A stretch of 24,000 bases of DNA from an uncultured delta proteobacterium (GTDB lineage Bacteria; Desulfobacterota; Desulfomonilia; Desulfomonilales; Desulfomonilaceae). The stretch spans positions 1-24,000 of the forward strand of contig CAVVHK010000021.1 in assembly GCA_963747865.1 (NCBI GenBank), in the 5' to 3' direction. How positions within the stretch are numbered: position 1 is the first letter of the stretch; the number at the start of each line of letters is the position of its first letter. Position numbers and translations under genes: made by a program. Below, in pieces: positions 1,038 to 19,722 of this stretch. Below the pieces are notes generated by a model. The model ran no database searches and was not told where the DNA came from. It was given only the letters and a program-made list of their open reading frames with translations.

Positions 1038-2013
1038 TGACAAGCCCGAACAAGCTTCAACTAAAAAAACAAAACATGGATTTAAAACGCTGGATCTTTT
1101 TGCCGGAGTAGGCGGAATAAGATTGGGATTTGAAAAGGCCGGATTCAAAACGGTATTTGCAAACGATTTTGACGCGCAGTGCAAGAATACATATGATTTG
1201 AATTTCAAAAAATCAAAGCTTGTCGTAGAAGACATAAGGAAAGTTGGGATCGACGATCTTCCTGAATTTGATTTTTTGCTGGGAGGTTTCCCCTGCCAGG
1301 CTTTTTCCATCGCCGGATACAGGAAGGGCTTTGACGATGAAAAAGGCCGGGGAAATTTATTCTTTGATATTGCAAGAATTTTAGATGCTCGCAAGCCTGA
1401 AGGATTCTTGCTGGAAAATGTGAAAAATTTAAGAAGCCACGACGGAGGAAAACATTTAAAATAATTCAGGAAGCTCTGGAAGGCCTCGGATACCATATTA
1501 AAACAAAAGTTCTGAACAGCATGGAATATGGAAATGTTCCGCAAAATCGCGAGCGCATTTATATCGTGGGATTTAAAAACGCAGAATACCGCGATAAGTT
1601 TGAATTTCCGAATCCATCAAAACTCACAACAAAAATTACAGACCTCCTAGAAAAAAATGTTAATGAAAAATATTATTATAATGGAAAGCCCTTGTTTGAG
1701 AAGCTAAAAAATTTCGTAAAGGACGAAGGAAAAGTCTATCAATGGCGCAGGCAATATGTCCGAGAGAATAAAAGCGGAGTCTGCCCGACTTTACTGCAAA
1801 CATGGGAATGGGAGGCCACAACGTGCCGATTATAAAAGATGGAAACGGCATAAGGAAGCTTACTCCCTTGGAATGCTTTAGAATCCAGGGCTTCCCCGAG
1901 GATTTCCAATTGCCTAAAATATCAGACTCAGCTTTTATAAGCAAGCAGGAAACTCTGTAAGCGTCCCTGTGCTTGAAGCTGTAGCAAAACAAATGATGAG
2001 GGCTATGTCGTAG
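1037..2013 (+). pseudogene. DNA (cytosine-5)-methyltransferase, frame broken at least 3 times
   Basis: The C5-MTase motifs occur in order across three frames. They are DLFAGVGG (I), GGFPCQAFS (IV), ENVKNL (VI), PQNRERIYIVGF (VIII), CPTL(T)ANMGMGGHNVP (IX region) and QAGNSVSVPV (X). The gene ends MMRAMS then TAG at 2011-2013. Breaks lie near 1455 (A-run), 1790 and 1935 (T-run). A candidate ATG at 1037 overlaps a TAA (TAATG) but is in a different frame from the body. Confidence 0.85.
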
Positions 2014-2528
2014 CTACCAGACCTTCACGGATTTTGCCAAAGGTTTTATTCCATATCTCGCAATTATCTCTTTCTTGATGCCAAACCTCGGACGCCTTTT
2101 CTGCTCCTGCTGGTCGGTGAATTTCTCTTTTTTATTAAGGCTTGGTTTTTTATATATTTATTAGGAATCAAATATACGTCGAAATATCCATCGCATTTCC
2201 CATCGTTGTAAAAATCAAGCAAGTACAAATCGTCCCATTTGGATTTCGGCCCGAACGTGGTCAAATCTTTCTCAATGCTGCAAGGCTTAATCTGTTGGGC
2301 TTTCCCTGTTTTTAAATCAAAAGTATCAAATGATCCGGCAATGCCCTTATTCGTTCCCTTGATTTTAAGATATCTCCCCGCCCCGGACCATAAACAAAAA
2401 GCAACTTCGGATAATCCTTCAGGAAAATTCGGCTCCCTGGCTTTATAATCCCTTAAGCCAAGCTTGAGGTTTTTCCAAATATCAAAAATGTCCTTCCATT
2501 TCTTGCCGTCAGTTTTATCAAAATGCAT
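2014..2528 (-). pseudogene. Putative type II restriction endonuclease (PD-(D/E)xK-like), C-terminal frameshift
   Basis: ORF 2064..2537 is convergent with the methyltransferase and meets it tail to tail at 2013/2014. It contains SFDTFD...CSIEKD, compatible with a D...(D/E)xK nuclease motif. After the T/A-run near 2131 a second frame continues KKEKFTDQQEQKRRPRFGIKKEIIARYGIKPLAKSVKVW to a stop at 2014-2016. The first ATG is at 2528; the track start at 2537 is TTG. The assignment rests mainly on context. Confidence 0.5.
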
Positions 2529-2762
2529 TAATTGCAAATTGCATTTCTGGCCGAAAACTTTGGTTCGTGTTCTTGAATTTCCATAAATTGTTTAAAATGA
2601 TTATTAGTTGAATTATCATATTCACTCTATTACTAAAAATGGCCGCTTTCAAGTGCTTTTGAGCTGGCGGGTTTTGAGGCACAGGGTCTGGACTAATAGG
2701 CACAATTGCGTCATTCCTTGTACTTGAGGGGTAAACTATTAACCAACCCTTCAAGCAAAAAC

Positions 2763-4086
2763 ATGGAACAAATAACACAAATAAAAAACAGTCTGCCGTC
2801 CCCTCCTCCTGTGATTATCGGGAAAATAAAGTACTGCCTTTATGCCAGGAAAAGCACAGAATCAGAGGAACGGCAGGTAATGTCGATAGATTCGCAGATA
2901 AAAGAAATGTTGCAGGTCGCAGAACGGGATGGGCTGGAAATCGTGGAAATCCGGCGAGAATCGCACTCTGCTAAAAATTCCAGCGAGAGGCCTGTGTTCA
3001 ATTCAATAGTTGAGGATATTAGATTAGGAAAATTCAACGGCATAATGACATGGGCGCCGGACAGGCTTTCCAGAAACGCTGGAGATTTAGGATCGCTAGT
3101 GGATTTGATGGATCAAAAATTATTGGCAGAGATAAGAACGCATAGCCAGATATTCACAAATAATCCGAATGAAAAATTTCTGCTAATGATATTGGGCAGT
3201 CAGGCAAAACTGGAAAATGATAACAGAGGTATTAACGTAAGGCGTGGCCTTCGTACCCGGTGTGAAATGGGCTTGCGGCCGGGCACAGCGCCAACAGGAT
3301 ATTTGAACGAAAAAAGGATTGATCGAAAATGCCAGGTTGCGCTGGATCTAGAACGAGCCCCGATTATCAAAAAAATGTTTGAAAAAGTGGCATTCGAAAA
3401 TTGGTCTGGCATAAAGCTTTATCACTGGATGAGATTTGAAATTAATTTCCGTACAATACATCAGCACCATCTTTCATTAAGTAATATCTACTTAATTTTA
3501 AGAAATACTTTTTACTACGGCGTTTTTGAATATCCAGAACACAGCGGCAACTGGTACAACGGAAAACACGAACCGATTATTGATAAAGATTTATTTGATA
3601 AGGTTCAACACCAACTAAAAGTAGATTATGTCAGAACAGAAAAGGAATTTGCTTTCACAAAACTTATAACTTGCGGACACTGCGGATCGGGAATTTCGGC
3701 TAGAGAAAAATTCAAAAAATTAAAAAATGGTAAGACATTGAAATTTATTTATTACGGATGCAGTAAAGTCCAGAAATTTACATTGCCACGAAGGCTATCT
3801 TCGGGAAGAGGATTTAATTAAACAACTGATGGATATTATTGATAAAATGGACTGAATGATATTGAAGTAAAACACAAATTCCCAAGAAGAGGTAAAAAGA
3901 TACAATATATTCCAAAAACGTGTATTAAAAAATGGAGATAATGAACAACCGCAAAAAGACGTAGATATTAAGAGTTATATGAAATATTTACTCAAGGAGG
4001 GCAGTATATCAGAAAAACGAGAAATACTTTCCTGCATAAAAAATAAGATTGTGATTAGAAAGAAAATTTTAAGCATAGAACAATAG
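2763..4086 (+). pseudogene. Large serine recombinase (resolvase/invertase catalytic domain, recombinase domain and zinc ribbon), C-terminal third frame-broken
   Basis: ORF 2706..3821 shows YARKSTESEE...SIDSQ (catalytic Ser region), DRLSRN, the recombinase-domain YYGVFEY and a CGHCG...YYGC zinc ribbon. The C-terminus continues in other frames: RNLHCHEGYLREEDLIKQLMDIIDKMD, then LNDIEVKHKF, then QEEVKRYNIFQKRVL...ILSIEQ, with TAG at 4084-4086. The likely start is ATG 2763 (MEQITQIK). Confidence 0.85.
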
Positions 4087-4135: not shown

Positions 4136-4719
4136 CTACAATTTTTCTAAAACGTTAACACCAAAATTTTTGAGCTCTTCCACTAACGGTAACATTGGCA
4201 GCCCTACAACATTGAAATAATCCCCCTCAATCTTTTCTACAAAAATTCCTCCGCGATGTTGCATGGCATAGGCGCCGGCTTTATTCACGGCTCGCCCAAA
4301 GAAATATAGTCATCAATATCTTTTTCCGAAATATCTGTAATAAAAACTTTTGTTTCTACCGATCTGGTAGCTTGTTTATTTGTTTCCGTATCGATTATTG
4401 TAAATCCAGTAATAACAGAATGCGCTTTTCCGCTGAGTTTATTTAGCATAATTTTAGCATTTTCTTTTGTATGCGGTTTGCCAAGAATTTCCTTATCTAA
4501 AATACAAAAAGTATCGGCTGCAATAATAATGGAATTTTCGTGCCTCTTTGCCACATCTTTTGCCTTTCCCAAAGATAAAAATTCCGCCAATTTACTTGGC
4601 TCCATTTTTAAGGTCATATCTTCTTCGTAATTACTTGGGTCCACTTCAAATTCCAAGCCAATTTGATTTAATAAATCTCTTCTTCCCTGAGAGCCTGACG
4701 CTAAAATTATTTTTTTCAT
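4136..4719 (-). pseudogene. maf: Maf-like nucleoside triphosphate pyrophosphatase, single frameshift near 4285
   Basis: ORF 4285..4719 reads MKKIILASGSQGRRDLLNQIGLEFEV...GKAHSVITGF...DYISLGEP. The conserved C-terminus VNKAGAYAMQHRGGIFVEKIEGDYFNVVGLPMLPLVEEL follows in another frame down to TAG at 4136-4138. Confidence 0.85.
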
Positions 4720-5840: not shown

Positions 5841-6451
5841 TTACGATGCCCGAATGGCCAACAATGTATCGCACCATTGAAGTTGATTCCATTTGTCAGC
5901 CTCACTGAGACCTGCAACAAGACATTTGCATTTGTTGTCACAACCGGTTGCTGGATAATGTACATATCCGGCACCCTGACCAGGCCCCGACCACAAGTTG
6001 CCGAGCGCCTTAACGCTGAACATTTCATCTTTCCAATGTTGAGCGCCGAAAGCCAGGATGCTGATCCCTCGCAGGCCCTAGGCCCATGTGCCACAAGCGC
6101 TTAATCGCCTCATCAATCTTCATGCGCTCTGCATACTCATCGCCGCAGATAATAAGAAAAGCTTCGAATTCGACGATTCCGTTGCCGTTTATCGAAAATT
6201 TCTTGGTGCCGAAATCTTTGTCGACAGAGCTATATCCTCCGGCGGCGATCATCTCTTCAATGGACATGGAGTAATCAATCCTAATTGTGAAGCGCCTCTT
6301 AGTCTTGCGTTCAATCTTCACAATCTGTTCGGCGATGCAGTCCATAACTCCCTTCGCCTTCGAATGAAGAACATTGACGCATATGAGTTCCACCCTTTGC
6401 CTTCACCGAAGCTTCGATCTCAGTCCAAATATTCTTCAATTCTTTTGACAT
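5841..6451 (-). pseudogene. Hypothetical protein (~200 aa) of unknown function, frame broken at least twice
   Basis: ATG 6451 (MSKELKNIWTEIEASVKAKG) joins ORF 6025..6393 (...SIEEMIAAGGYSSVDKDFGTKKFSINGNGIVEFEAFLI...EAIKRLWHMGL). That joins ORF 5841..6023 after a break near 6065 (...ISILAFGAQHWKDEMFSVKALGNLW...LLAIRAS). I do not recognise a named family. Confidence 0.5.
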
Positions 6452-6488
6452 GATTCAAATTCCCCTATAGTTTTTTTCAAAGAACTTT

Positions 6489-6920: not shown

Positions 6921-7526
6921 TTACTTGTTTATTTTCGCCAATTGACCGATCAATTCTTCCAATCTCGGAACTGTATTGATATCGTGAATTTCTATGTACC
7001 TAATTATCCCTTGTTTGTCTATTACGAACAATGCCCTCTCCGCTGTGCCGTCACCTCTAAGCACTCCATAACTCTGAGCTACCGCGCCGTGAGGCGAAAA
7101 GTCGGAGAGCACCGGGAACCAGACGCCGCCCATTTCTTTAGTCCAGGCGAATAGGGTTGGCGCGTTATCAACGGAAATTCCGAGCACCACCGCCTGGTTC
7201 TTTTCAAAATACTCCTTGGCAATGTTGTAGCCCGGCCATTGCTGGGAGCATACAGGGGTCCATGCGGCGGGAACAAACGATAACACAACGTTTTTTTTGC
7301 CCCTGAATTCGCTCAAGCTTACTTTGCCCCCTGAAACTGACGGCAGAGTGAACTGCGGCGCAACGTCGCCCACTTTGGTCTTCAGTTGGCTGTCCGTGGC
7401 TTTGAGCGTCCCCGGATTGAAAATGCGCGGGTCCATTGGACTAGGGCCTTCCGGGTTCGCGGCCGATCCGACAAGACAAATCATGACGAAGACAACCGGC
7501 GACACTATGAATTTGGTTAAGCTCAT
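6921..7526 (-). CDS. Peroxiredoxin (AhpC/TSA family) with N-terminal signal or anchor sequence
   Basis: 201-aa ORF. It has a hydrophobic N-terminus and [36 protein letters not shown], with the peroxidatic Cys in TPVC. The thioredoxin-fold remainder is intact. Confidence 0.9.
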
Positions 7527-7535
7527 GATTAAGCC

Positions 7536-8103
7536 CTAAAAAGATTCGTCGTTGCGGATTCTCTTCAGAAACCCCTCGGTATCCTTAATGCGTCCCAAAT
7601 GAACCCCCTTGACCTCAAAGGCTCCTGAACCGACCTTCTTCAGGGTACAAGAACGTCGGGGTCCGAACATGCTCGGAGAAGGCCTTCTGCACCGCAAATG
7701 AATCATCAGGCAGAAGAGGAAACTTGATGTCGTATTTTTTTCTGAACACGTCCACTTCAAAGGGCGTATTCCCGACTCCTATGCCCAACACTTTCAATTT
7801 GGTTTTTAGACTTTCATCTTTCTCAACCGCTGAGAACAGCTCGTTCACATTCGGCGCTTCCGCTTGACAAATCGGGCAATACATACTGAATATTTCCACG
7901 AGTAGGTAGGCCGCCGGAGCCTCAGAAAGCGTGAAGGACTCTTTCTTCTTCACCTGCAAGTAGGCCTGTTCATCTGCGTTCTTCGGGGCCTGGAAACGAA
8001 TCTTGCTCAGAGCGGTTGTGTCCACTTTAAGGGATGTGGCCATTGCGAAACCGGCGGAAACAGCGAAGGCGCAAATTAACAAAACAATTAAACGGTTACG
8101 CAT
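7536..8103 (-). pseudogene. TlpA/ResA-like thiol-disulfide oxidoreductase (CPIC motif), apparent single frameshift near 7655
   Basis: The real start is ATG 8103 (MRNRLIVLLICAFAVSAGFA, a signal peptide). It has a YCPICQ redox motif and then ...HVRTPTFLYP. The expected last strand and helix (LKKVGSGAFEVKGVHLGRIKDTEGFLKRI) lie in the frame of ORF 7536..7760. Confidence 0.75.
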
Positions 8104-8176
8104 AGCAATTCCCCGACGAACTCCGTCTGTCACGAGAACGCCCCATCCTGCCGAGCCGCGTCTATCGCGCTTACGA

Positions 8177-8365
8177 TCATTTGGCCCCCGGCATGGGAAC
8201 AGGCTTAAACATTTTCTTGGTGGCGCCGCAGATCGGGCATTTCCAGTCATCGGGAAGGTCTTCAAAGGCCGTCCCTTTGGGAATCTTCCCTTTCCTATCC
8301 CCTCTGGAAGAGTCATAAATATATCCGCAATTCACAGTTTGGCACTGATAGAGTTGTTGGCTCAT
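8177..8365 (-). CDS. rub: Rubredoxin
   Basis: 62 aa with [13 protein letters not shown] and [15 protein letters not shown], the two Cys-x-x-Cys knuckles of rubredoxin. Confidence 0.92.
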
Positions 8366-8474
8366 TTGGCGCCCTTGAATCCTTTCAGGTTAGATCTCAG
8401 GTAAATCGGCTCCTCAGATAATTCTGATCGCTTCGGATCGCGCTACTGAACCGTATCCATTCGGTTACGCGGGG

Positions 8475-8559
8475 GAGATTGCTTCGCCCCGCTCGCAATG
8501 ACAAGCCCAAATGTCATTGCGAGGACTGAAATCCCGCGTTCCGGCGGGAAAGCAATCTC
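8475..8559. repeat. Nested inverted-repeat element (REP/MITE-like)
   Basis: The outer arms GAGATTGCTT (8475-8484) and AAGCAATCTC (8550-8559) enclose the perfect inner arms CTCGCAATGACA (8492-8503) and TGTCATTGCGAG (8512-8523). A related half copy lies at 9489-9523. Confidence 0.7.
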
Positions 8560-8743
8560 TGTATTCGCCGCTCATGACTGAATGGTTACAATGAACCAAT
8601 ATACCGATCTTCGAAAGCAGCGGGTCAATGAACGGGCTGCAATAATTATATCTCGTGAAGAGATTCGGGGAAGGCCTTTTTCCAAAGAAGCCCTCCCGCG
8701 TATCTCTTCCAAACACCCTTAGATTTGGCGACTTGCTCTAATA

Positions 8744-9115
8744 TCAGTCCTTCCAAAGTCCGTGCAGGTTACAGTATTCACGCGCCGTCCATTCGCCCTC
8801 CACAGGGAATACGGCTTCAGGAGCCTGGCCAGGTTTTAAGAATTGCTTGTAGGTTTTGTCGCCCGAAATAATCTCCACCCACTCGATAAAATGCTTTTCT
8901 TCCATAGGGTGAGGAACGGAGCCCACCTTCACCTTCAGCCCGCCGGCCACTGTCTCCTTCACCGGGACATGTTTCTCTTTAGCAGCGTCAACAGTGTTTT
9001 CTTTGAACAATTTCATAGCTTGGCCGCAACAAACAAGTTCTCCAACGCCAGTATGTACCATTTCCACAATGTTTCCACAAATTTCACATTTGTAAACCTG
9101 AAGAAGCTCTGTCAT
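8744..9115 (-). CDS. dfx: Desulfoferrodoxin (2Fe superoxide reductase)
   Basis: 123 aa. It has the N-terminal desulforedoxin-like CEICGN...VCCG and the C-terminal SOR centre residues ([23 protein letters not shown]). Confidence 0.93.
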
Positions 9116-9488
9116 AACAACCTCCGAATTCCAGCATTAGAAAGTGTAGATTCAATATCCGAGGAACCAAATCCCCCCTGTGACTCAAAGGCTTCCGGTC
9201 TTTTTTCATCATACAAATTTTTGCTGAGACTTACAATTTGATTACGACGCCGCAAAGAGTCGCCGGTCCCGAACATTCCAGATGGCCGACCTAATAGACG
9301 CAATAATTAAGACTTTGAGCGGATATTTCGGCGGGCCTTTCTCTGAAAGAAGGCCCATCCGGGAGCCTCTCCCCGAAGCTCTTAAAGTCATCCGCATTCA
9401 AAACTCCGGGAACTTCGGAACCGTGCGGAGCCGAATTCTGTCGTTGAGGGGGTTGTAGCCAATGGCAATCTCATCGTCCATAAAACGT

Positions 9489-9523
9489 GAGATCGCTTCG
9501 TGGCTTCGCGCCTCGCAACGACA
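9489..9523. repeat. Partial copy of the 8475-8559 repeat family
   Basis: GAGATCGCTTCGTGGCTTCGCGCCTCGCAACGACA resembles GAGATTGCTTCGCCCCGCTCGCAATGACA at 8475-8503. The second arm is absent. Confidence 0.5.
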
Positions 9524-9576
9524 TATTTGCAGATCAAAGCAATTGAAGCGCTTTTTTACCTATGCGGCGAATCGAT

Positions 9577-9605
9577 AAAAAAATGACTACAGGTTCTGAA
9601 ACCTG
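9577..9605 (-). terminator. Rho-independent terminator after rubrerythrin
   Basis: The minus strand reads CAGGTT-tcag-AACCTG (9605-9590), followed after 6 nt by TTTTTTT (9583-9577), directly after the stop at 9608. Confidence 0.55.
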
Positions 9606-9607
9606 AT

Positions 9608-10183
9608 CTACCAATTTTCAGCCAAAATCTCGAAATACGATTGCGGGTGGGCGCAAGCCGGACAGGCGTCCGGGGCTCCATTTCCTTCATGAAGATAGCC
9701 GCAGTTTATGCATCTCCAAACTACGGGGCTTTCTTTTTTGAAGACCAGGCCCTGCTCCACGTTGCGAAGCAGATGCAAGTAGCGTTTTTCATGCTGTTTT
9801 TCAGCGACGCAAACCGCTTCCCAAATTTTTGCGGCGACATCAAATCCTTCGGCGTAGGCTGTCTTGACGAAACCGGGATAGAGTTCAGTCCACTCAAAAT
9901 GCTCCCCTGCCGCAGCTTCTTTCAAGTTATTCATTGTGGCCGCAATTACGCCCGCGGGAAACGCTGCTTGGATAACCAAATCGCTTCCCTGGAGCTGCTT
10001 AAAAAACCTTTTTGCATGCTCTTTTTCTTGATTGGCGGTTTCTTCGAAAATCTGGGCGATTTGAACAAACCCCTCGTTCTTGGCCTGCGAAGCAAAATAA
10101 GTGTATCGATTGCGAGCCTGGGATTCTCCTGCAAACGAAATCAGAAGGTTCTTTTCGGTTTCGGAACCCTTCCAGTCCACCAT
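9608..10183 (-). CDS. rbr: Rubrerythrin
   Basis: It starts at ATG 10183 (MVDWKGSETEKNL) with AAAGGAGA upstream. It has di-iron four-helix motifs (ESQARNRY, EKEHAK, EKQHEKRY) and a C-terminal rubredoxin-like CINCGY...CPACAHP. Confidence 0.92.
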   Translation of the reverse strand: MVDWKGSETEKNLLISFAGESQARNRYTYFASQAKNEGFVQIAQIFEETANQEKEHAKRFFKQLQGSDLVIQAAFPAGVIAATMNNLKEAAAGEHFEWTELYPGFVKTAYAEGFDVAAKIWEAVCVAEKQHEKRYLHLLRNVEQGLVFKKESPVVWRCINCGYLHEGNGAPDACPACAHPQSYFEILAENW

Positions 10184-10263
10184 TGATGTTCTCCTTTCAT
10201 CGATTAATTTGGCGTTGGTCAAGCGCTTTAAACCGCTTGGCAAAATAGAAATTCCAAAACAGC

Positions 10264-10713
10264 TCAGCATAATTTCCCTTCGGGCCGCCCGCCGGATGCG
10301 AGCTCTCCCTCTTCCAGCTCGGGATGTTTACGTCTGCAATCCGGACACAACCCCATGAACTCCAATTTGTGCCACAGAACTTTATAGTCGCTCACCTGAG
10401 CGAGCGTCTGGTCAATCATGGAAATAGGATCCAGGGGCGCATCATCGACGCGCTGACACTTAACACACCTTATGTGGTAGTGATTGGCCGCTTTCCCGTC
10501 GAACCTCTTCTGCGAGCCCGCCATCTCTAACTTCAAGATGACTCCCATTTCCGAAAGAAGTTCCAGATTCCTGTAAACCGTCCCCAGGCTGATTTTAGGC
10601 AAACGTCGGCGCACCATTTCGTAGACCTCCACGGCGGTAGGGTGTGAATGCACCTTACTGAGCTCTTCGATTATGATGCGACGCTGATTTGTCACCCGCG
10701 GCCGAGCGTTCAA
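10264..10713 (-). CDS. perR: Fur-family transcriptional regulator, PerR-like by context
   Basis: 149 aa with a winged-helix N-terminus (HPTAVEVYEMV...ISLGTVYRNL), HYHIRCVKCQRV and a CPDC Zn-site motif. It lies immediately upstream of rubrerythrin. The start appears to be TTG 10713, with AAAGG upstream. Confidence 0.75.
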   Translation of the reverse strand: MNARPRVTNQRRIIIEELSKVHSHPTAVEVYEMVRRRLPKISLGTVYRNLELLSEMGVILKLEMAGSQKRFDGKAANHYHIRCVKCQRVDDAPLDPISMIDQTLAQVSDYKVLWHKLEFMGLCPDCRRKHPELEEGELASGGRPEGKLC

Positions 10714-11749: not shown

Positions 11750-12723
11750 ACTATGGCGCCCCCTCAGGTGAATCCCGAGCCGGCGGTACATGCGTAACAG
11801 TGATCCGATACCGCAATGTTGGCTCCCGGAGCAGGTGGACGGTCAACCTCAGACACACTGGTCCGAATCCCCCCGGCAGGAATTCCGGCAGCCAAGTTGA
11901 AATCGCAATCATAAAGATAACCGTCCCACGACACCGAAATGAGGCTTCTGCACATCAGGCCGGGGACCGTGCAAGGGTTAAATTGGCCGGCCAATTTCTT
12001 GAGGTAAGATTCGTAGTTGCCGGACGCGAGCAACCAGCTCTTGAATCTGCCCAACGGAACGTTGGCGAAAGTGAAAAGATTGCTGAACTCGATGGCCCAT
12101 TTTTCCTTGAGCTCCCGACGAAACCTGTCTCCGGCCTCCTGCGGGCCGGGCGGCAAAAACGCGCCGGCGGGATTGCTCACAAGGTTGAGTTCCAAACCTG
12201 TCTCAGGGAGCCCATAACCCGCTCGGTTGAGCAGTCTTAACGCTTCGATGGTTTTGTCAAACAAACCGAAACCGCGTTGAGTCTCCAACTGGCGCAGATT
12301 AGTCGAAGGAAAAGAACCGACGATCACTACGCCCAAATTCGCGCATGCTGACACTATTTCATCCGATGGTCGTTCGACCAGGACCGTTAGATTCGAGCGC
12401 AGCATTACGCGTGGGGCCGCATGTGAGGCTTTCTTCAACAAATACAAAAGATTTGGGTTTAACTCCGGGGCGCCTCCGGTTATGTCTATTACCTGAAAGG
12501 CCGATTTTTCGGCAAAGTCCACCACGAGACCCATGGTCTCGCGTGTCATGATTTCCTCCCGATCGGGCCCCGCCTCGAGGTGGCAATGGCGACAAGCCTG
12601 ATTGCAGGCAAACCCGACGTTAACCTGCAAGACGCCTGTTTCCGCGCGCTTTAGATCCAGCCCGTGCTTGGTCAGCGCGCCGTGAAACGGCAGGATTCCC
12701 TCAATTCTGGCTGCGATGGACAT
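11743..12723 (-). CDS. arsS: ArsS-like radical SAM / Cys-rich domain protein, probable selenoprotein (UGA at 11766-11764 read as Sec)
   Basis: It has the radical SAM motif CNQACRHC near the N-terminus and a long Cys-rich C-terminal domain ending [31 protein letters not shown]-like hairpin follows the first TGA. From memory, members of this family carry Cys or Sec at this C-terminal position. Confidence 0.8.
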
Positions 12724-12739
12724 TGCGTCGGCCTACGTC

Positions 12740-13073
12740 TTACAAAGACATCTTTGTCGCAACGTTACGCATCTGGATGCCATGCACGAGCGACGATCCT
12801 CCGCGAATAGCCACGGCCACATGCACAGCTTCAGTCATTTCGTCCAGGTTCGAGCCCTTTTCCAGGCAAGCCTGAGTATATGCGTCAATACAATACGGAC
12901 ACTGCACCGTGTGCGCCACGGCCAGGGCTATCAGCGACTTTTCTCGTTCCGTGAGCGCCCCCGCCTTAAAAACCGTGGCATAATATTCGAAAAACTTCTT
13001 CGCCGGCTCAGGCGCGTCTTCTCCTATCTCGCCGAACTTCAATAGGTCCTTTGGATCGTAGGTACGTTTCCAT
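12740..13073 (-). pseudogene. AhpD-like (carboxymuconolactone decarboxylase family) peroxidase-like protein, apparent 1-nt frameshift at the N-terminus
   Basis: ORF 12740..13042 has ALTEREKSLIALAVAHTVQCPYCIDAYT, the AhpD-type CxxC. Upstream, ATG 13073 gives METY and then, one frame off, YDPKDLLKFGEIGEDAPE joins the ORF. No in-frame ATG or GTG exists otherwise; the track start is TTG. It is adjacent to the ArsS-like gene, a pairing I recall for this family. Confidence 0.75.
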
Positions 13074-13298
13074 TTTTGCCCCTTCGTGGTCGAGCGGTCG
13101 AAAATCTCTCTTGAGTTTGAGAGCGATGTATACTACCCACAATATTAATGGGCTGAGCAACCAAAGCAAAGAGTAATTTGACTTCGCGCCTGTTAAGAAG
13201 TTTTCCGGCCGTTTGCCGGGGCGTGTCTCCTTGGCGCCGTCAAAGTAATTACAGCGATAAACGATCACCATTTCCGAAAAAAGGAATCAAATACAATC

Positions 13299-13955
13299 GT
13301 GGAAGACAGATCTTTCAAGCAGAAAGCCTTTGATTTTGTCACGTTCCCCGTTAGGGCGCTCACGCTTCACGGTGGGATAGACATGTGGGGGATGACCTCA
13401 CTGGCTTCGGAACGGTTCTATTACGTGAGCCAATATGTGGTGGGATACTCCTTGGATGTTGGTTGCGGCAGAGGAAACCGCTTCATCAACGAGTTCCTCG
13501 CCGGTTTTGGCAAGGGCATTGATGTTTATCGCTATGAAGGGCTTACGGACGAAAACATAGTTGACGACATCTCTAAGTTTCCCTTTCCGAACAGGAGTTT
13601 TTCTTCAGTAACATTCATAGCTAATCTGAATCATGTCCCTAAGGACTTGCGTGACACTGAATTAGCCGAATCCTATCGAGTCCTCAAACCCGGCGGCAAC
13701 ATAATCGTGACCATGGGCAGGCCGTTTGTCGAGATTCTAGTCCACAAACTAGTCGCATTCTACGACCGATACTTCCATACCGATTTTGACATCGACAACG
13801 AACGAGGCATGGATGCGGACGAACATTATTTTCTTACGCCTGAGGAAATAAATAATCGTCTGTCCGAAGCGGGTTTCGTTAGACTGGAGAAGAAATTGTT
13901 CTGGACTCAATGGGGGCTGAATCAACTCTTTATCGGTTGGAAGCCGGAGAATTGA
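13299..13955 (+). CDS. Class I SAM-dependent methyltransferase
   Basis: 218 aa with a GTG start. It has the SAM-binding motif I LDVGCGRGNRF and the later LKPGGNIIV motif. The substrate is unknown. Confidence 0.75.
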   Translation: MEDRSFKQKAFDFVTFPVRALTLHGGIDMWGMTSLASERFYYVSQYVVGYSLDVGCGRGNRFINEFLAGFGKGIDVYRYEGLTDENIVDDISKFPFPNRSFSSVTFIANLNHVPKDLRDTELAESYRVLKPGGNIIVTMGRPFVEILVHKLVAFYDRYFHTDFDIDNERGMDADEHYFLTPEEINNRLSEAGFVRLEKKLFWTQWGLNQLFIGWKPEN

Positions 13956-15273: not shown

Positions 15274-16128
15274 TCAGAAGGTCTTGAGAAACCTGGCGAG
15301 CGTCTCTTTGTCCTGGGATCCAAGATAGGTTTGTCTGACTTCAGAGTTGTAAAAGACGAAAATCGCGGGGATGCTCCTAACATTAAAGGTGGCGAATAAT
15401 TCCTTTTCCGATTGAGGAACTATACCTACAACCGCTTTTCCAGCTGTATCCGCCGCAAGTTCATCTAAGACGGACTCCATCCGTCTGCACCAGCCTCACC
15501 AATCCGCATGAAACATGACTAGGACAGGCCTTGATCTCGAGGCGCCTTTCACTTCCCTTTCAAAGTTTGCCTTCGTGAAAGTGCGAACCTCTCCGACGGC
15601 CGCTGTGGAAACGCTGGTCAAGTGTTTAGTCGGTTTGTGAAAAGACCATTTGATTATCACTACCCCAACCGTCAAAAGAGCAAAAACGCCGATTATGATA
15701 GCGGGCCACCACTTGGACCCATCTGAATCGTCGTGGTCCTCGTATCTGAAAGAACGCTCATGGGAATAACGTGGCGGACCCATTGAGGCGATTTTGGCCA
15801 CAACAACTCCGCAATGGGGACATTCATCGTAAACCCTGTCTTGAGTCGTGCGGCAAGCTGGACATGTCCAAGTAACCGGGATTTCGTGCTTCGTCAGCTT
15901 GGGCTCCGGTCTTGAAGCGGCTAACCCTGAAACGGGAGCGGGCTGCGCCAACAAACCCATTTCGGTGAGCTTGCGCAGGACCGACCTGTACGCCTTGTCC
16001 GAAAGCTCGAATCTCCGTTGTATTTCCGATTCGTCCACACCGTCTTGAATGGCTTCGAGTATCAGCTTCGCATTTATCTTTCTTTTGGGAGGATCGGACA
16101 TGGAAAGCTTCCCCATTGGTCTACTCAA
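15274..16128 (-). CDS. Membrane-anchored thioredoxin-like selenoprotein (N-terminal zinc ribbon, one TM helix, Trx domain with WUGWC site)
   Basis: Track ORFs 15496..16128 and 15274..15480 are in the same frame, separated only by TGA (15498-15496) plus 5 codons. The joined sequence reads RPVLVMFHADW-U-GWCRRMESVLDELAADTAGKAVVGIV...VRSIPAIFVF. It aligns residue for residue with the thioredoxin WCGPC...cis-Pro pattern, with Sec replacing the first Cys. Upstream are CPACRTTQDRVYDECPHCG and the TM segment WWPAIIIGVFALLTVGVVII. The start is uncertain: TTG 16128, ATG 16116 or ATG 16101. Confidence 0.85.
15468..15486 (-). promoter_or_regulatory. Candidate bacterial SECIS hairpin for the Trx-like UGA
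   Basis: The minus strand reads AGACGGA-UGGAG-UCCGUCU, a perfect 7-bp stem with a G-containing loop, starting 9 nt after the UGA. Confidence 0.65.
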
Positions 16129-17157: not shown

Positions 17158-19722
17158 ATGAAAAAGCGTGCCACAAAAGACGGGCCGGCAAAAGGGTTGA
17201 GTCGCCGGGGGCGGTTGGAAACCTTGGAGACCAATCTGGTCATGGCCTCGGCAAGCCGAGAGCTCTCAATTGATATCATTGGCCTTCTGAACAAGCGCAC
17301 CGTAGACATAAGCGTTGTCAGAGAAATTCTAAATCTCATAAGAAAGTTTACGAAATTTGAAGCGGTCGGAATTCGTTTACGCAGCGGTGACGATTTCCCC
17401 TACTGCTTCACCACGGGCTTTTCCGACGACTTCCTAACAACGGAAGGCTCCATTTGCGCAAAAGATAATAGTGGGGAAATAATCCGCGACGCTGAGGGCC
17501 GACCGACACTTGAATGCTTGTGCGGGCTGGTTATCTCCGGTAAGACCGATCCGTCCCGCCCGTATTTCACCCCTGAAGGAAGCTTTTGGACGAACGCCCG
17601 GTCGAAACTCCTGGCGTCCGACCAAGGAAAGAGTATCATTCGCGTTGCCAGAAAACGGTTTGTGTCCCACCGATACGAATCTGTGGCGATCATTCCCCTT
17701 CGCTTAGGGCGCGAAACAATCGGCTTGCTGCAACTCAATGATTCCCGTGAAAATTGCTTTTCGTACGAAATGGTCCACTTCTTCGAGGGCGTAGGCAGTA
17801 TCATTGGTATCGCTCTAGCGAGAATACAAGCGGACGAAGGCCTAAGCCAAGCCGAAAACAAGTTGGAAGAGCGTGTCGAAGAACGAACCGCCGAACTCCT
17901 TGCCGCCACACGATCCCTTGAACAGGAAATTCGAGAACGCAACGCACTCGAACAAGAATTGCTGAGGAGCCAACATCGGTTGGAATTGGCTATGGCGGCC
18001 TCGAATCTGGGCTCATGGGATTGGAAACTCGACACTGATGAAGTCTGTTTCGACAAGCGGTGGGGCGAGATCTTCGGCAACCAACACGATGAACTGGAAT
18101 CGGACGCGAAGACCTGGCAAAACAGGATCCATCGTGACGATAAGCTAGGGGTGCTGAAGAAGTTGAAACGCCACCTCGAAGATCCGGATCAATACTTTGA
18201 AGCCGAATACCGACTCGAAACCAAATCAGGGGAATGGAAATGGATTTTGGACCGAGGCAGAGTGGTGGAAACCGACGAGACCGGTAAACCTACGCGCATG
18301 GCCGGCATTTACCTCGATATTACAGACCGCAAAGTTATGGAAGAAGAGTTGCATGATTCTGCGGAACGGTTTCGGGCCATCTTTGAGAGCGCCAAAGATT
18401 GTATCTTTGTAAAAAATAGGTCTCTACAATACACCCATGTGAACCCGGCGTTCGTGAAAATGATCGGGGTCCCGGAGTCGGACATCATAGGTTGGACGGA
18501 CGAAGATTTGTACGACTCCGATTGCGCTCAGATTTTTCGCGAGGTTGAGCGGCGGGTGTTGGAAGGGGAGTCGGTTGAGCAAGAATATACAAGGGTCATA
18601 AGAAAAATTCCCCGCAGTTTTCTCGACACGAGAGTGCCGATGAGGAACAAGCGTGGCCATATAATAGGCATTGTGGCCATAAGCGTGGAAATGACGGATA
18701 GAAAGCCCTCCCGATCCATTGGGGCATCCGTAGAGCCCGAGTATCGGGCCGAGTCCATGCGCTCGACTCTCCGAGCAGCTCGCTTGGCTGCCGAGACCGA
18801 CACCATAGTGCTGCTCATGGGCGAAAGCGGGGCGGGCAAGGATCACGTCGCCCGATATGTGCACGATCATTCTAAACGCTCAAACGGGCCGTTCTTTTCT
18901 ATCAATTGCGCCGCTGTATCCCCTGAATTGGCTGAATCGGAACTCTTCGGCTATGAGCCGGGCGCATTCACCGGCTCCAGAGGGCTTAAGCGGGGACTGT
19001 TGGAGCTTGCCGAAGGGGGCACGATTCTGCTCAATGAAATAGGCGAGTTATCGCCTCCGCTTCAGGCAAAGCTGCTGACTTTCTTGGACACTCGTCAGTT
19101 TACCAGAGTAGGCGGTGTGAAACTTTTCACGGTAAACGCCCGGTTGATTGCGGCAACTAACAGAGATTTGGAAAAGGAAGTCAAACAAAACCGTTTTCGT
19201 CAAGATCTGTTTTACAGATTAGATGTTTTCACCATAGAGGTGCCGCCCCTTAGGCGCAGGACCGAAGACATCCCTCATCTGGTTAAAATCCTGGTGCGGG
19301 AACTTAGCCCCAAGATGGGATTCGAGTCCGTGCCGCAGGTGGGCCTCGACGTCTTAAAGGTCCTTGCGGACTACCCCTGGCCTGGAAATGTGAGAGAACT
19401 TCGCAACGTGCTGGAGCGCGCATTGATTCTCTGCGACAGAAAGCAGATCAGCATTGAAGACCTTGCAATACACGACAAATCCAAATCTAAAAAGCAGGGG
19501 CAAACGTGGTCCGTCAACATACGCTTCCCTGAGAATGAGACCATAAACGAGGTAACCATGAATTTGAAACGGGCACTGGTAGTCGAAGCCCTTCGCCGAA
19601 CCGGGGGAAGCCGGAAGCGCGCGGCGGATCTCCTTGGAATCAGCCCTGATTCATTGAAGCACTACATGCAGATATTTGACCTGTTCACTGTCTTGCCCTT
19701 CCCATCCAGCCAAACAGGGTAA
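17158..19722 (+). CDS. Sigma-54-dependent transcriptional activator with GAF, coiled-coil and two PAS sensor domains
   Basis: 854 aa. The AAA+ sigma-54 interaction domain shows GESGAGKDHVARYVH (Walker A), ESELFGYEPGAFTGS (GAFTGA loop) and RFRQDLFYRL. The C-terminal Fis-type HTH is RKRAADLLGISPDSLKHYMQ. The N-terminal part has a GAF-like region and two PAS-like modules, each ending in ...DITDRK or ...EMTDRK. Confidence 0.92.
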   Translation: MKKRATKDGPAKGLSRRGRLETLETNLVMASASRELSIDIIGLLNKRTVDISVVREILNLIRKFTKFEAVGIRLRSGDDFPYCFTTGFSDDFLTTEGSICAKDNSGEIIRDAEGRPTLECLCGLVISGKTDPSRPYFTPEGSFWTNARSKLLASDQGKSIIRVARKRFVSHRYESVAIIPLRLGRETIGLLQLNDSRENCFSYEMVHFFEGVGSIIGIALARIQADEGLSQAENKLEERVEERTAELLAATRSLEQEIRERNALEQELLRSQHRLELAMAASNLGSWDWKLDTDEVCFDKRWGEIFGNQHDELESDAKTWQNRIHRDDKLGVLKKLKRHLEDPDQYFEAEYRLETKSGEWKWILDRGRVVETDETGKPTRMAGIYLDITDRKVMEEELHDSAERFRAIFESAKDCIFVKNRSLQYTHVNPAFVKMIGVPESDIIGWTDEDLYDSDCAQIFREVERRVLEGESVEQEYTRVIRKIPRSFLDTRVPMRNKRGHIIGIVAISVEMTDRKPSRSIGASVEPEYRAESMRSTLRAARLAAETDTIVLLMGESGAGKDHVARYVHDHSKRSNGPFFSINCAAVSPELAESELFGYEPGAFTGSRGLKRGLLELAEGGTILLNEIGELSPPLQAKLLTFLDTRQFTRVGGVKLFTVNARLIAATNRDLEKEVKQNRFRQDLFYRLDVFTIEVPPLRRRTEDIPHLVKILVRELSPKMGFESVPQVGLDVLKVLADYPWPGNVRELRNVLERALILCDRKQISIEDLAIHDKSKSKKQGQTWSVNIRFPENETINEVTMNLKRALVVEALRRTGGSRKRAADLLGISPDSLKHYMQIFDLFTVLPFPSSQTG

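What the first reader, a model, noticed from the sequence alone, without database searches (positions are those of the whole stretch)
15274..16128. Split ORF is one membrane-anchored thioredoxin-like selenoprotein with a WUGWC active site
The two track ORFs are in frame, separated only by TGA and five codons. Reading TGA as selenocysteine gives VLVMFHADW-U-GWC...SIPA. This is a complete thioredoxin fold in which Sec replaces the nucleophilic Cys. A perfect 7-bp hairpin with a G-containing pentaloop starts 9 nt after the UGA, where a bacterial SECIS belongs. The architecture is distinctive. It has an N-terminal helix-rich region, a CPAC...CPHC zinc ribbon, a single TM helix and then the Trx domain. 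That suggests a redox module tethered to a cytoplasmic nucleic-acid- or protein-binding part. Trx-like selenoproteins are known in deltaproteobacteria, but I do not recognise this domain combination.
Basis: partly seen in the sequence, partly recalled or inferred. Interest (0 to 1): 0.7.

Follow-up and report, generated by a model that had tools for sequence, protein, structure and literature searches.

The report
Membrane-anchored selenocysteine thioredoxin, split by annotation
The two adjacent reading frames are one gene for a membrane-anchored thioredoxin whose catalytic cysteine is replaced by selenocysteine (encoded by UGA), and it belongs to a widespread family with an undescribed domain layout that gene callers cut in two.

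Summary
Window 16101..15274 (- strand) is one 275-codon gene with an in-frame TGA at 15498..15496. The Pfam thioredoxin model matches continuously across the TGA (E = 6e-19). The TGA aligns with the first Cys of WCGPC in solved thioredoxins. All 12 family members whose DNA I could read, down to about 30% identity and including Desulfomonile tiedjei DSM 6799, have TGA at this codon. All continue with C-R/K-R-M-x-S and the rest of the Trx domain. All keep a hairpin GRCGGA-UGGNN-UCCGYC that starts 9-10 nt after the UGA. That hairpin meets all four published bacterial SECIS criteria. It pairs in 72 of 72 cells, shows two compensatory changes, and freezes synonymous sites. All 49 protein clusters with this architecture end exactly one residue before the Sec site, and no Cys version was found. 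The architecture is a three-helix HTH-like module, a Cys4 zinc ribbon, one TM helix, a variable linker, and a UxxC thioredoxin domain. No Pfam or NCBIfam model describes this family. Topology and physiological role are inferred only, with the Trx domain probably periplasmic. The Sec machinery of the source genome could not be checked. Verdict: a real selenoprotein and a new architectural variant of the known Sec-thioredoxin kind.

The parts
15274..16101 (-). Complete selenoprotein gene. It has 275 codons plus the terminal TGA stop at 15276..15274. The start ATG at 16101 is inferred from orthologue N-termini. The mechanical ORF starts at TTG 16128, and the database call P0001 starts at ATG 16116.
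15952..16089 (-). N-terminal three-helix HTH-like module, residues ~5-50. Its sequence is PKRKINAKLILEAIQDGVDESEIQRRFELSDKAYRSVLRKLTEMGLL.
   Evidence: AF2 pLDDT is 92-95 with three helices. Foldseek PDB hits are all HTH DNA-binding domains, but each is weak (E >= 0.66). Pfam gives only weak hits to HTH_27, wHTH-PRTase_assc, DUF433 and HTH_45. The module occurs in 943 representative proteins of many architectures.
15793..15876 (-). Cys4 zinc ribbon, W-x-CPxC...(10)...ECPxCG, with C80, C83, C94 and C97.
   Evidence: The four Cys and G98 are invariant in 37 family members. pLDDT is ~90. Pfam zinc-ribbon, rubredoxin and HypA hits are weak.
15640..15708 (-). Single transmembrane helix, residues ~132-154, followed by the conserved W-S-x-H-[KR] motif.
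   Evidence: Hydropathy maximum is 2.6 over 19 residues, and a helix is present in every one of 37 members. AF2 predicts a helix at 137-159 in P0001 numbering.
15283..15588 (-). Thioredoxin domain (PF00085), residues ~172-273. Its active site is W-U-G-W-C and its cis-Pro loop is R-S-I-P-A.
15496..15498 (-). In-frame UGA, the selenocysteine codon (Sec202). It aligns with the N-terminal nucleophilic Cys of the CxxC motif.
15468..15486 (-). SECIS-type hairpin. The 5' arm is 15486-15480, the loop UGGAG is 15479-15475 and the 3' arm is 15474-15468. It is preceded by a 9-nt spacer at 15495-15487.

Best explanation
Window 16101..15274 (- strand) encodes one 275-residue selenoprotein.

During translation, the UGA at 15498..15496 is recoded to selenocysteine. 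The recoding signal is the hairpin GACGGA-UGGAG-UCCGUC that begins 9-10 nt downstream. In the standard bacterial mechanism this hairpin recruits SelB-GTP-Sec-tRNA(Sec) to the ribosome. That step is inferred from the established mechanism and was not shown here.

The product has these parts in order:
- a three-helix HTH-like module;
- a Cys4 zinc ribbon;
- one transmembrane helix;
- a linker, which is short here and up to ~100 residues, acidic and Pro-rich, in relatives;
- a classical thioredoxin domain with active site U-x-x-C.

By analogy with thioredoxins and with the experimentally verified Sec-thioredoxin class, the selenolate of Sec202 attacks a substrate disulfide (or sulfenate or selenenyl species). 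Cys205 then resolves the mixed selenenylsulfide.

The most likely topology is N-in/C-out, which I put at about 70-75%. The HTH and zinc ribbon would be cytoplasmic and the Sec-Trx domain would be tethered on the periplasmic face. This would make the protein a membrane-anchored extracytoplasmic thiol/selenol-disulfide oxidoreductase, with the cytoplasmic module coupling it to a partner (DNA or protein).

Shown: one gene, a conserved UGA, a SECIS-like hairpin, the Trx fold and the domain order. Inferred: SelB dependence, the chemistry, the topology and the role of the N-terminal module.
For: **Trx continuity and the Sec/Cys alignment**
- The Trx profile is continuous across the TGA: PF00085 E = 6e-19, profile positions 2-102 of 103.
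- The TGA aligns with the first Cys of WCGPC, and RSIPAIFVF aligns with the cis-Pro loop VRSIPTLLMF of solved thioredoxin 6ckp_A (E = 1e-15).

**UGA conserved in relatives**
- All 12 loci with DNA have TGA at the same codon followed by C-[RK]-R-M-x-S and the rest of the domain.
- These loci are the window, L002, L017, L018, L019, L003, L035, L036, L037, L038 (D. tiedjei CP003360), L040 and L042. Their identity to the window protein is 30-60%.
- Synonymous codon variation continues after the TGA.

**No Cys form found**
- 41 of the top 150 representative clusters, plus 8 more clusters, have the full architecture. All end exactly one residue before the Sec site and none continues with Cys.
- A local HMM of the post-Sec part finds it in no protein that carries the N-terminal module.

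**SECIS hairpin**
- The published bacterial model (PMC13188914) requires a 3-9 nt loop, a 4-16 bp stem, a G in the first two loop positions, 16-37 nt from UGA to loop, and MFE <= -7.5 kcal/mol.
- The window element has a 5-nt loop UGGAG, a 7-bp stem, 16 nt from UGA to loop, and -10.4 kcal/mol.
- Across the 12 sequences, 72 of 72 stem cells pair and two pairs show compensatory double changes (G-C to A-U; A-U to G-U to G-C). Only 13 of 500 shuffles reach this.
- Among 27 columns with an invariant amino acid and at least 4-fold codon degeneracy, only the two stem codons CGG (Arg) and TCC (Ser) are codon-invariant.

**UGA is not reassigned genome-wide**
- TGA is the ordinary stop of 7 of 17 Pfam-supported genes in the window, including this gene's own terminal stop.

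**At least one host decodes Sec**
- D. tiedjei has a selD gene with a Sec codon (PMC5389517) and a selenoprotein of the SO_0444 family (bioRxiv 10.1101/2022.07.06.499078).
- In its record, a 93-aa gene is already called in frame through this TGA.

**Topology**
- The N-terminal module also occurs alone in ~100-aa proteins with no signal peptide (L020-L022).
- The N-terminal region carries about 20 Lys/Arg.
- The nearest Trx relatives sharing VMFHADW[C/U] are exported: lipoprotein (L005), signal peptide (L010, L028) or signal anchor (L008, L011, L030).
Against: - The source genome's selA, selB, selC and selD could not be examined. No tRNA or sel gene lies in the window, and the 347-kb contig could not be fetched.
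- No Rfam family matches the hairpin. This is expected for bacterial SECIS elements and so is not informative.
- The covariation support rests on only two compensatory events in related sequences. The stem also overlaps the conserved peptide R-R-M-x-S-V.
- The flank charges of the TM helix point the other way for topology. The C-terminal flank has a mean of 2.7 K+R and 1.0 D+E. The N-terminal flank has 1.9 and 2.1. The C-flank is the more positive in 23 of 37 members.
- Gene neighbourhood is not conserved, so no redox partner such as CcdA/DsbD or thioredoxin reductase, and no substrate, can be named.
- The HTH assignment rests on weak hits.
Confidence: 0.82

Rival explanations
1. UGA is an ordinary stop. 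On this reading the locus holds two separate genes or a broken one: a 201-aa membrane protein ending in a Trx stub, plus a 68-aa fragment. The break could come from mutation or assembly error.
For: - Gene callers and public databases treat the two parts as separate proteins (P0001 and P0004).
- The window does contain at least one frameshifted gene, Maf at 4136-4719.
- TGA is a normal stop elsewhere in the window.
Against: - The same TGA at the same codon appears in 12 of 12 loci at 30-60% identity. Purifying selection and synonymous variation continue downstream.
- Neither half is a complete fold. The Trx profile needs both.
- The SECIS-type hairpin is conserved, with compensatory changes.
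- The 68-aa ORF has no start context of its own. Its ATG is the Met of the conserved C-R-R-M motif.
Confidence: 0.03
2. The UGA is read through, but not as selenocysteine. It could be read as Cys by a selC*-type tRNA-Cys(UCA), as described in some Deltaproteobacteria, or by near-cognate suppression. The product would then be an ordinary CxxC thioredoxin.
For: PMC5389517 reports UGA-reading tRNA-Cys variants in relatives of these organisms and shows opal-to-Cys translation in a reporter. The source genome's tRNA set is unknown.
Against: - A hairpin meeting all four bacterial SECIS criteria is strictly conserved at the SelB-appropriate distance. A simple suppressor tRNA would not require it.
- If Cys were acceptable, TGC/TGT forms should occur, yet none was found among 49 clusters.
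- D. tiedjei is a documented Sec user.
Confidence: 0.05
3. The protein is the same but the topology is opposite (N-out/C-in). The Sec-Trx domain would be a cytoplasmic thioredoxin held at the inner face of the membrane, and the HTH/zinc-ribbon module would be outside.
For: - The positive-inside count favours the C-terminal flank: 2.7 against 1.9 K+R, with fewer acidic residues, and the C-flank is the more positive in 23 of 37 members.
- The domain is a classical PF00085 thioredoxin. Its best NCBIfam and PDB matches are cytoplasmic TrxA/TrxC types, and its nearest Cys hits are Trx-TPR proteins.
Against: - An N-terminal region of about 130 residues with ~20 Lys/Arg, a folded Cys4 zinc site and no signal peptide is very unlikely to be exported.
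- The same module occurs in soluble proteins with no signal peptide (L020-L022).
- The Trx relatives sharing the VMFHADW[C/U] motif are lipoproteins, signal-peptide proteins or signal-anchored proteins.
Confidence: 0.22
4. The protein is a sensor rather than an enzyme. On this reading it is a ToxR/CadC-style membrane-bound one-component regulator or an anti-sigma-like factor. The redox state of the periplasmic U-x-x-C domain would control the cytoplasmic HTH/zinc-ribbon output.
For: - The layout HTH-like domain, TM helix, then periplasmic redox-active domain mirrors ToxR/CadC. That resemblance rests on my own knowledge of those families.
- Fold hits of the N-terminal module are all DNA-binding HTH domains.
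- A sigma-54 activator gene lies next to the gene in the window (17158-19722) and in L003.
Against: - The HTH hits are weak (E >= 0.66).
- There is no match to OmpR/ToxR-type Trans_reg_C or to anti-sigma domains.
- The N-terminal module also occurs in tandem arrays and fused to ankyrin or TPR repeats. That fits a protein-binding adaptor better than a specific DNA binder.
- Neighbourhoods are not conserved and no shared upstream motif was seen.
Confidence: 0.15

Closest known systems
Sec-containing thioredoxin (selenoprotein family 'Thioredoxin (Trx)', PF00085, UxxC). It is listed as experimentally verified in the 2026 prokaryotic selenoproteome review PMC13188914, with example WP_010956703.1.
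   Same: - The Pfam domain is the same, and Sec sits at the N-terminal nucleophilic position of the CxxC motif (U-x-x-C).
- The SECIS hairpin lies immediately downstream inside the coding region.
- The expected chemistry is the same: a selenenylsulfide in place of a disulfide.
   Different: - Known Sec-thioredoxins are small soluble proteins of about 100 aa that have abundant Cys homologues.
- This protein carries about 170 extra N-terminal residues (HTH-like module, zinc ribbon, TM helix, linker).
- It scores below the TIGR01068 thioredoxin cut-off (59 against 96.8 bits).
- The dipeptide between U and C is variable (GW, GG, GA, VW, PP, PY, GP, LP) rather than GP.
- No Cys form of the architecture was found.
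[quoted passage not shown]
   Same: A single TM helix tethers a Trx-fold domain that is probably on the outer face of the membrane. Sec variants of such proteins are known.
   Different: - Those families use a short N-terminal signal anchor and belong to the AhpC-TSA/Redoxin branch.
- Here the anchor is internal, after a ~130-residue cytoplasmic module, and the domain is classical PF00085.
- The AhpC-TSA, Thioredoxin_8 and DsbE models score below their cut-offs.
Anaerolineae signal-anchored W-U-P-[VT]-C thioredoxin selenoproteins, found here (L008, L011, L030) with a Cys counterpart (L007)
   Same: - They share the VMFHADW-U motif.
- They are membrane-tethered Trx domains with an in-frame TGA and a downstream hairpin candidate.
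   Different: - They have only a Lys-rich N-terminus and a TM signal anchor, with no HTH or zinc ribbon.
- The sequence after the CxxC motif differs (QRAMPEV), and so does the hairpin.
- A Cys homologue exists.
ToxR/CadC-type membrane-bound one-component regulators
   Same: The order of parts is the same: a cytoplasmic N-terminal HTH-type domain, one TM helix, and a periplasmic domain with redox-active Cys/Sec.
   Different: There is no sequence or profile similarity to the OmpR-type winged helix. The periplasmic domain here is a complete catalytic thioredoxin. A regulatory role is untested.

Membership tests
Bacterial selenoprotein (UGA-Sec with bSECIS) | The in-frame UGA aligns with a Cys of homologous proteins (a Sec/Cys pair). 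| tested here: met
   The TGA aligns with the first Cys of WCGPC in Cys-containing relatives L004-L006, L013, L015 and L023 and in solved thioredoxins.
Bacterial selenoprotein (UGA-Sec with bSECIS) | The UGA is conserved in orthologues from other organisms, and coding conservation continues downstream. | tested here: met
   12 of 12 loci have TGA at the same codon. The downstream region is 50-70% identical at protein level, with synonymous codon variation.
Bacterial selenoprotein (UGA-Sec with bSECIS) | The bSECIS model as in PMC13188914 Fig. 2A: loop 3-9 nt, stem 4-16 bp, G in the first two loop positions, 16-37 nt from UGA to loop, MFE <= -7.5 kcal/mol. | tested here: met
   - Window: loop UGGAG, 7-bp stem, 16 nt from UGA to loop, -10.4 kcal/mol.
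- 11 of 12 relatives also reach <= -7.5 for the core hairpin. L042 gives -6.6.
- Pairing is 72 of 72 cells, with two compensatory pairs.
Bacterial selenoprotein (UGA-Sec with bSECIS) | selA, selB, selC and selD are present in the same genome. | not testable with these tools
   - Only 24 kb of the source genome is available, and it holds no sel gene or tRNA.
- For the family member in D. tiedjei, the literature documents a selD with a Sec codon and other selenoproteins.
Bacterial selenoprotein (UGA-Sec with bSECIS) | Selenium is demonstrated in the protein. | not testable with these tools
   This needs 75Se labelling or mass spectrometry.
Thioredoxin family (Pfam PF00085) | The profile score is above the Pfam gathering threshold over the whole domain. 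| tested here: met
   68.4 bits against a cut-off of 23.5, covering profile positions 2-102 of 103.
Thioredoxin family (Pfam PF00085) | A C/U-x-x-C motif at the start of helix 1 and the cis-Pro loop. | tested here: met
   W-U-G-W-C aligns with WCGPC, and RSIPAIFVF aligns with RSIPTLLMF of 6ckp_A.
Canonical thioredoxin TrxA/TrxC (NCBIfam equivalogs TIGR01068, NF006898, NF008229) | The score is above the curated equivalog cut-off. | tested here: not met
   59.2 against 96.8, 45.0 against 138, and 47.8 against 125. It is a Trx-fold domain of the PF00085 family but not a TrxA/TrxC equivalog.
Named Trx-like selenoprotein families with their own NCBIfam models (for example PDO_seleno_TRX TIGR02187, TsoB NF045694, zinc-ribbon (seleno)protein DG NF049953) | The score is above the model's cut-off. 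| tested here: not met
   Only far-sub-threshold hits appear: TsoB 19.5 against 805, TIGR02187 16.3 against 185, DG 13.2 against 130. No other selenoprotein model appears in the list.
TlpA/ResA/DsbE membrane-anchored periplasmic oxidoreductases | A Redoxin/AhpC-TSA-type domain with an N-terminal signal anchor. | tested here: not met
   AhpC-TSA scores 17.6 against 26, dsbE 23.9 against 123 and ResA 14.6 against 170. The TM helix is internal, at residues ~132-154.
ToxR/CadC-like membrane-bound transcription regulators | An OmpR-type winged-helix DNA-binding domain at the N-terminus. | tested here: not met
   There is no Trans_reg_C hit. The N-terminal module is a three-helix HTH-like bundle with only weak fold matches.
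ToxR/CadC-like membrane-bound transcription regulators | N-in/C-out single-pass topology with a periplasmic sensor domain. | tested here: inconclusive
   Domain logic and exported relatives favour N-in/C-out. The flank charges favour the opposite orientation.

The most novel reading that the evidence does not exclude
This would be an obligately selenium-dependent, membrane-spanning redox signalling protein. A periplasmic Sec-thioredoxin domain would act as the sensor, or as a catalytic relay. Its selenenylsulfide/selenol state would be transmitted through one TM helix to a cytoplasmic HTH-plus-zinc-ribbon output module. That output module is itself a widespread, undescribed signalling adaptor, with 943 representative proteins, tandem arrays, and fusions to ankyrin, TPR and PrsW domains. 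No Cys version of the family would exist, so its synthesis would also report selenium availability.
Probability: 0.12. Interest if true: 0.75.

Novelty: new variant of a known kind. Interest (0 to 1): 0.5.

Why it matters
- **Annotation.** A whole family, at least 49 clusters at 50-90% identity and including the complete genome of Desulfomonile tiedjei, is split in public databases. One piece is a 'hypothetical protein' that ends at the active site. The other is an orphan ~70-aa fragment, or in D. tiedjei a 93-aa Sec-Trx stub. A profile plus the conserved motif U-x-x-C-R-R-M and its hairpin would repair these calls.
- **Selenium biology.** Reviews stress that nearly all selenoproteins have more abundant Cys homologues. 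No Cys form of this architecture was found, which makes it a useful case for asking why Sec is retained.
- **Overlapping codes.** The SECIS here is locked to a conserved peptide (C-R-R-M-x-S-V). It is a compact example of an RNA code and a protein code overlapping.
- **New module and function.** The N-terminal HTH-like module plus zinc ribbon is a common, unnamed domain pair. Its fusion across the membrane to a Sec-thioredoxin suggests an untested link between envelope redox chemistry and a cytoplasmic partner in anaerobes.

Tried and rejected
- **Rfam.** Scans of the whole window at gathering thresholds, and of 15350-15600 at E <= 10, found no SECIS or other relevant family, only chance hits. 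tRNA-Sec was not found in the window.
- **Whole-segment folding.** The 71-nt segment does not fold better than shuffles (z = -0.02). Only the local hairpin carries signal.
- **Source contig.** The look-up of P0001 found no record. P0004 returned only a 1-kb Logan contig. So the source organism and its Sec machinery remain unknown. The listing of cluster members gave no names.
- **Full-length structure prediction.** Only the N-terminal 206 aa was modelled.
- **Foldseek against PDB.** No hit had E <= 0.001. I treat the HTH reading as a consistent but weak indication.
- **Other selenoprotein genes in the window.** A scan for TGA-bridged ORFs found none besides the target. The truncated Maf gene is a frameshift, not a read-through.
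- **Conserved neighbourhood or partner.** The contexts in the window, L003, L035, L038/L040 and L042/L043 differ. The sigma-54 activator adjacency (window and L003) was not backed by any conserved sigma-54-type promoter upstream.
- **Cys-containing full-architecture homologues.** I searched three ways: the representative library, the word-indexed profile search with the N-terminal alignment, and the same with the full-length alignment. None was found.
- **Genome-wide UGA reassignment.** Rejected, because TGA terminates 7 of 17 supported genes in the window.
Full report
**1. What is in the sequence**

On the minus strand, ORF 16128..15496 ends in TGA at 15498..15496. Five codons later (GGC TGG TGC AGA CGG), the ATG of ORF 15480..15274 follows in the same frame. 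Read-through gives ...SRPVLVMFHADW-U-GWCRRMESVLDELAADTAGKAVVGIVPQSEKELFATFNVRSIPAIFVFYNSEVRQTYLGSQDKETLARFLKTF.

With Cys placed at the TGA, Pfam Thioredoxin (PF00085) matches residues 181-282 continuously. It covers profile positions 2-102 of 103, with E = 6e-19 and 68.4 bits against a cut-off of 23.5. Against solved structures, the domain aligns end to end with true thioredoxins (6ckp_A, E = 1e-15). The TGA falls on the first Cys of WCGPC, and RSIPAIFVF falls on the cis-Pro loop. Neither ORF alone is a complete fold.

A scan of all six frames for TGA-bridged ORF pairs found no other convincing case in the 24 kb. TGA is the ordinary stop of 7 of 17 Pfam-supported genes in the window, including the terminal stop of this gene. 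So UGA is not reassigned genome-wide.

**2. Relatives all have the same UGA**

The first protein search returned only three proteins. All of them end at ...VLVMFHADW. Their DNA, and loci from the genome and metagenome scans, show why: the gene callers stopped at a conserved TGA. I could read DNA for 12 members:
- the window;
- L002, L017, L018 and L019, at 50-60% identity;
- L003, L035, L036, L037, L040 and L042, at 30-40% identity;
- L038, which is Desulfomonile tiedjei DSM 6799, CP003360.1.

All 12 have TGA at this codon, followed by x-x-C-[RK]-R-M-x-S-[VA]-[LM] and the rest of the thioredoxin domain down to a normal stop. Codons downstream of the TGA vary synonymously while the protein is conserved. 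That is the signature of translation continuing past the UGA.

In the D. tiedjei record, a 93-residue gene (L038:10751-11032) is called in frame through the TGA, while the upstream 267 residues are a separate 'hypothetical protein'. So the Sec-Trx stub has been noticed there, but not the fusion.

**3. No Cys form**

A profile of the part before the Sec site, searched against 1.84 billion representatives, gave 943 hits. Of the best 150, 41 have the full architecture. Every one of those ends exactly one residue before the Sec position (...FHADW, FYADW, FYSDT, FYSHT and similar), and none continues with Cys.

Two further profile searches added eight more such clusters and again no Cys form. A local HMM of the post-Sec part of the domain hits only the window's own downstream ORF and an unrelated Trx-TPR outgroup.

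The 2026 selenoproteome review states that nearly all selenoproteins have more abundant Cys homologues (PMC13188914). At the level of this architecture, that is not what I see.

**4. The hairpin behaves as a SECIS**

In the window the element is AGACGGA-UGGAG-UCCGUCU at 15486..15468, 9 nt after the UGA. Its free energy is -10.4 kcal/mol. The table compares it with the published bacterial model (PMC13188914 Fig. 2A legend).

| Criterion | Model requires | Window element |
|---|---|---|
| Loop length | 3-9 nt | 5 nt (UGGAG) |
| Stem length | 4-16 bp | 7 bp |
| G in first two loop positions | yes | G at loop position 2, followed by G |
| UGA to loop | 16-37 nt | 16 nt |
| MFE | <= -7.5 kcal/mol | -10.4 kcal/mol |

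All four criteria are met, the spacing exactly at the lower bound.

In the 12-sequence alignment, the six-pair core pairs in 72 of 72 cells. Two pairs carry compensatory double changes: G-C to A-U in L042, and A-U through G-U to G-C in L017 and L018. Sliding the 3' arm destroys pairing, and only 13 of 500 column shuffles reach the observed values.

The stem overlaps the conserved peptide R-R-M-x-S-V, so I checked synonymous sites. Among 27 columns with an invariant amino acid and at least 4-fold codon degeneracy in six orthologues, only two are codon-invariant. Both lie in the stem: CGG for Arg and TCC for Ser. If two such columns fell at random among the 27, both would land among the three qualifying stem codons with probability about 0.009. 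That figure is my arithmetic.

Caveats:
- The sample is small and the sequences are related.
- Rfam has no matching model.
- The 71-nt region as a whole folds no better than shuffles.

**5. Architecture**

Orthologue N-termini (M-[SP]-D-[PA]-P-K-R) place the start at ATG 16101. An AG-rich stretch lies 8-13 nt upstream of it. This gives 275 residues with Sec at position 202.

An AlphaFold2 model of the pre-Sec part, built on a 37-sequence alignment, shows these features:
- a confident three-helix bundle, pLDDT 92-95;
- a confident zinc-ribbon-like knuckle pair around the four invariant Cys;
- a 23-residue helix that is the only hydrophobic segment.

Foldseek against the PDB returns almost only HTH DNA-binding domains (paired domain, NarL/LuxR, MarR, Lrp/AsnC, resolvase). 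Every hit is individually insignificant, with E >= 0.66. Pfam gives only sub-threshold HTH_27, HTH_45, DUF433 and wHTH hits. I therefore call the module 'HTH-like' and leave DNA binding open.

The module plus ribbon is promiscuous. It occurs alone (about 100 aa, L020-L022), with a TM helix but no Trx (L025), in tandem arrays, and fused to ankyrin, TPR, PrsW and Yip1 domains.

The linker between the TM helix and the Trx domain is about 20 residues here. In relatives it reaches about 100 residues and is acidic and rich in Pro, Ser and Glu.

**6. Topology**

The evidence is mixed, and I state it as such.

Flank charges point to the C-terminal side being cytoplasmic. The C-flank averages 2.7 K+R and 1.0 D+E. 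The N-flank averages 1.9 and 2.1. The C-flank is the more positive in 23 of 37 members.

Three observations point the other way:
- The N-terminal region is about 130 residues with around 20 Lys/Arg, has no signal peptide, and has a Cys4 metal site.
- The same module exists in soluble proteins that lack a signal peptide.
- The Trx domains that share the VMFHADW[C/U] motif are exported. One is a lipoprotein (LLGC lipobox in Haloferula, L005). Others have signal peptides (L010; L028, which is followed by a CcdA/DsbD-like membrane ORF). Others have a Lys-rich signal anchor (L008, L011, L030).

I put N-in/Trx-out at about 70-75%.

**7. Context and function**

The window is 48.9% G+C. It carries anaerobe oxidative-stress genes: rubredoxin, two peroxiredoxin-type ORFs, rubrerythrin and a Fur/PerR-type regulator. 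It also has QueC, a radical-SAM DUF3641 gene with an AhpD-like gene, a methyltransferase and a Cache-domain protein. The target follows, then DUF1232, a GAF-PAS sigma-54 activator and a sulfatase.

Contexts of relatives differ. No shared upstream motif was found. No partner or substrate can therefore be named.

The mechanism I commit to is the generic one for a U-x-x-C thioredoxin. The selenolate attacks an oxidised substrate and Cys205 resolves the intermediate. The enzyme is held at the membrane, probably on the periplasmic face. The cytoplasmic HTH and zinc-ribbon module would serve as an adaptor or an output. A ToxR/CadC-like sensor role is possible, at about 15%.

**8. Comparison with what is known**

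Sec-containing thioredoxin (PF00085, UxxC) is a listed, experimentally verified selenoprotein family. Sec forms of membrane-tethered TlpA-like oxidoreductases are also listed (PMC13188914).

This gene passes the tests for 'selenoprotein gene' that can be run in silico, and for 'PF00085 domain'. It fails the cut-offs for TrxA/TrxC equivalogs, for TlpA/ResA/DsbE, and for every selenoprotein-specific NCBIfam model that appeared in the scan. I found no paper describing the HTH, zinc ribbon, TM helix and Sec-Trx fusion.

I therefore file it as a new architectural variant of a known kind, not a new kind.

**9. What remains open**

- The Sec machinery of the source genome is unknown. For D. tiedjei, Sec use is documented in the literature.
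- It is unconfirmed that the residue inserted is Sec rather than Cys from a UGA-reading tRNA-Cys (PMC5389517).
- The topology, the redox partner and the role of the N-terminal module are all undetermined.

Noticed in passing
L008:~2412-2825, L011:~464-757, L030:~6001-6480 (Anaerolineae MAGs and metagenome contigs): A second, differently built family of membrane-tethered thioredoxin selenoproteins. It has a Lys-rich N-terminus and a signal-anchor TM helix, followed by ...TLVMFHADW-TGA-P-[VT]-C-QRAMPEV... A candidate hairpin (GAGGU-CGUGA-ACCU[CU]) lies about 29 nt after the UGA. L007 is a Cys counterpart (HADWCHVCQ).
   Followed up: partly
L038:10001-11032 (Desulfomonile tiedjei DSM 6799, CP003360.1, within 2379248-2400051, reversed): In this complete genome, the family member is annotated as a 267-aa hypothetical protein plus an overlapping 93-aa gene called in frame through the TGA. 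The correct product is one 343-aa protein with motif T-U-G-P-C.
   Followed up: yes
L020:~1369-1700, L021:~686-1000, L022:96-383, L025:1773-2300; also P0034-P0172: The N-terminal HTH-like module plus CPxC...CPxCG zinc ribbon is a widespread pair with no Pfam model, found in 943 representative proteins. It occurs alone (in L020 and L021 just downstream of an ORF that looks like a Ser/Thr kinase C-terminus). It also occurs in tandem arrays of up to 7 copies, and fused to ankyrin, TPR, PrsW-protease and Yip1 domains.
   Followed up: partly
window 4136-4719 (-): The Maf-like gene is split by a frameshift. ORF 4285-4719 covers Pfam Maf profile positions 1-144 of 187. The remaining C-terminus (NKAGAYAMQ...) is in another frame at 4136-4288. 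This is either a pseudogene or an assembly error.
   Followed up: partly
window 805-3821: A likely mobile or restriction-modification island. ORF 805-1464 joins an S24 peptidase C-terminus to only the first 123 of 324 positions of a C5 DNA methylase, so it is truncated. A Bsp6I-like restriction endonuclease lies at 2064-2537 and a large serine recombinase at 2706-3821.
   Followed up: no
window ~6921-10713 (-): An anaerobe oxidative-stress cluster on the same strand as the target. It holds a rubredoxin (about 8177-8365) and a peroxiredoxin with an N-terminal hydrophobic leader (6921-7526). It also holds a second ORF with a partial AhpC-TSA match (7615-8316), rubrerythrin (9608-10270) and a Fur/PerR-type regulator (10264-10713).
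   Followed up: no
window 11764-13955: A radical-SAM protein with DUF3641 (11764-12723) is followed by a 100-aa AhpD/CMD-like protein with CPYC (12740-13042). A divergent SAM methyltransferase lies at 13299-13955. From memory, this pairing resembles arsenosugar-biosynthesis gene pairs. The CMD family has known Sec forms, but this copy uses Cys.
   Followed up: no
window 17158-19722 (+) and L003:17-1075: A sigma-54-dependent activator lies next to the selenoprotein gene in two unrelated contexts: divergent in the window (GAF-PAS-PAS-AAA+-Fis) and immediately upstream on the same strand in L003. No sigma-54-type promoter was found upstream of the selenoprotein genes, and other contexts lack the activator. 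It is probably coincidence.
   Followed up: partly
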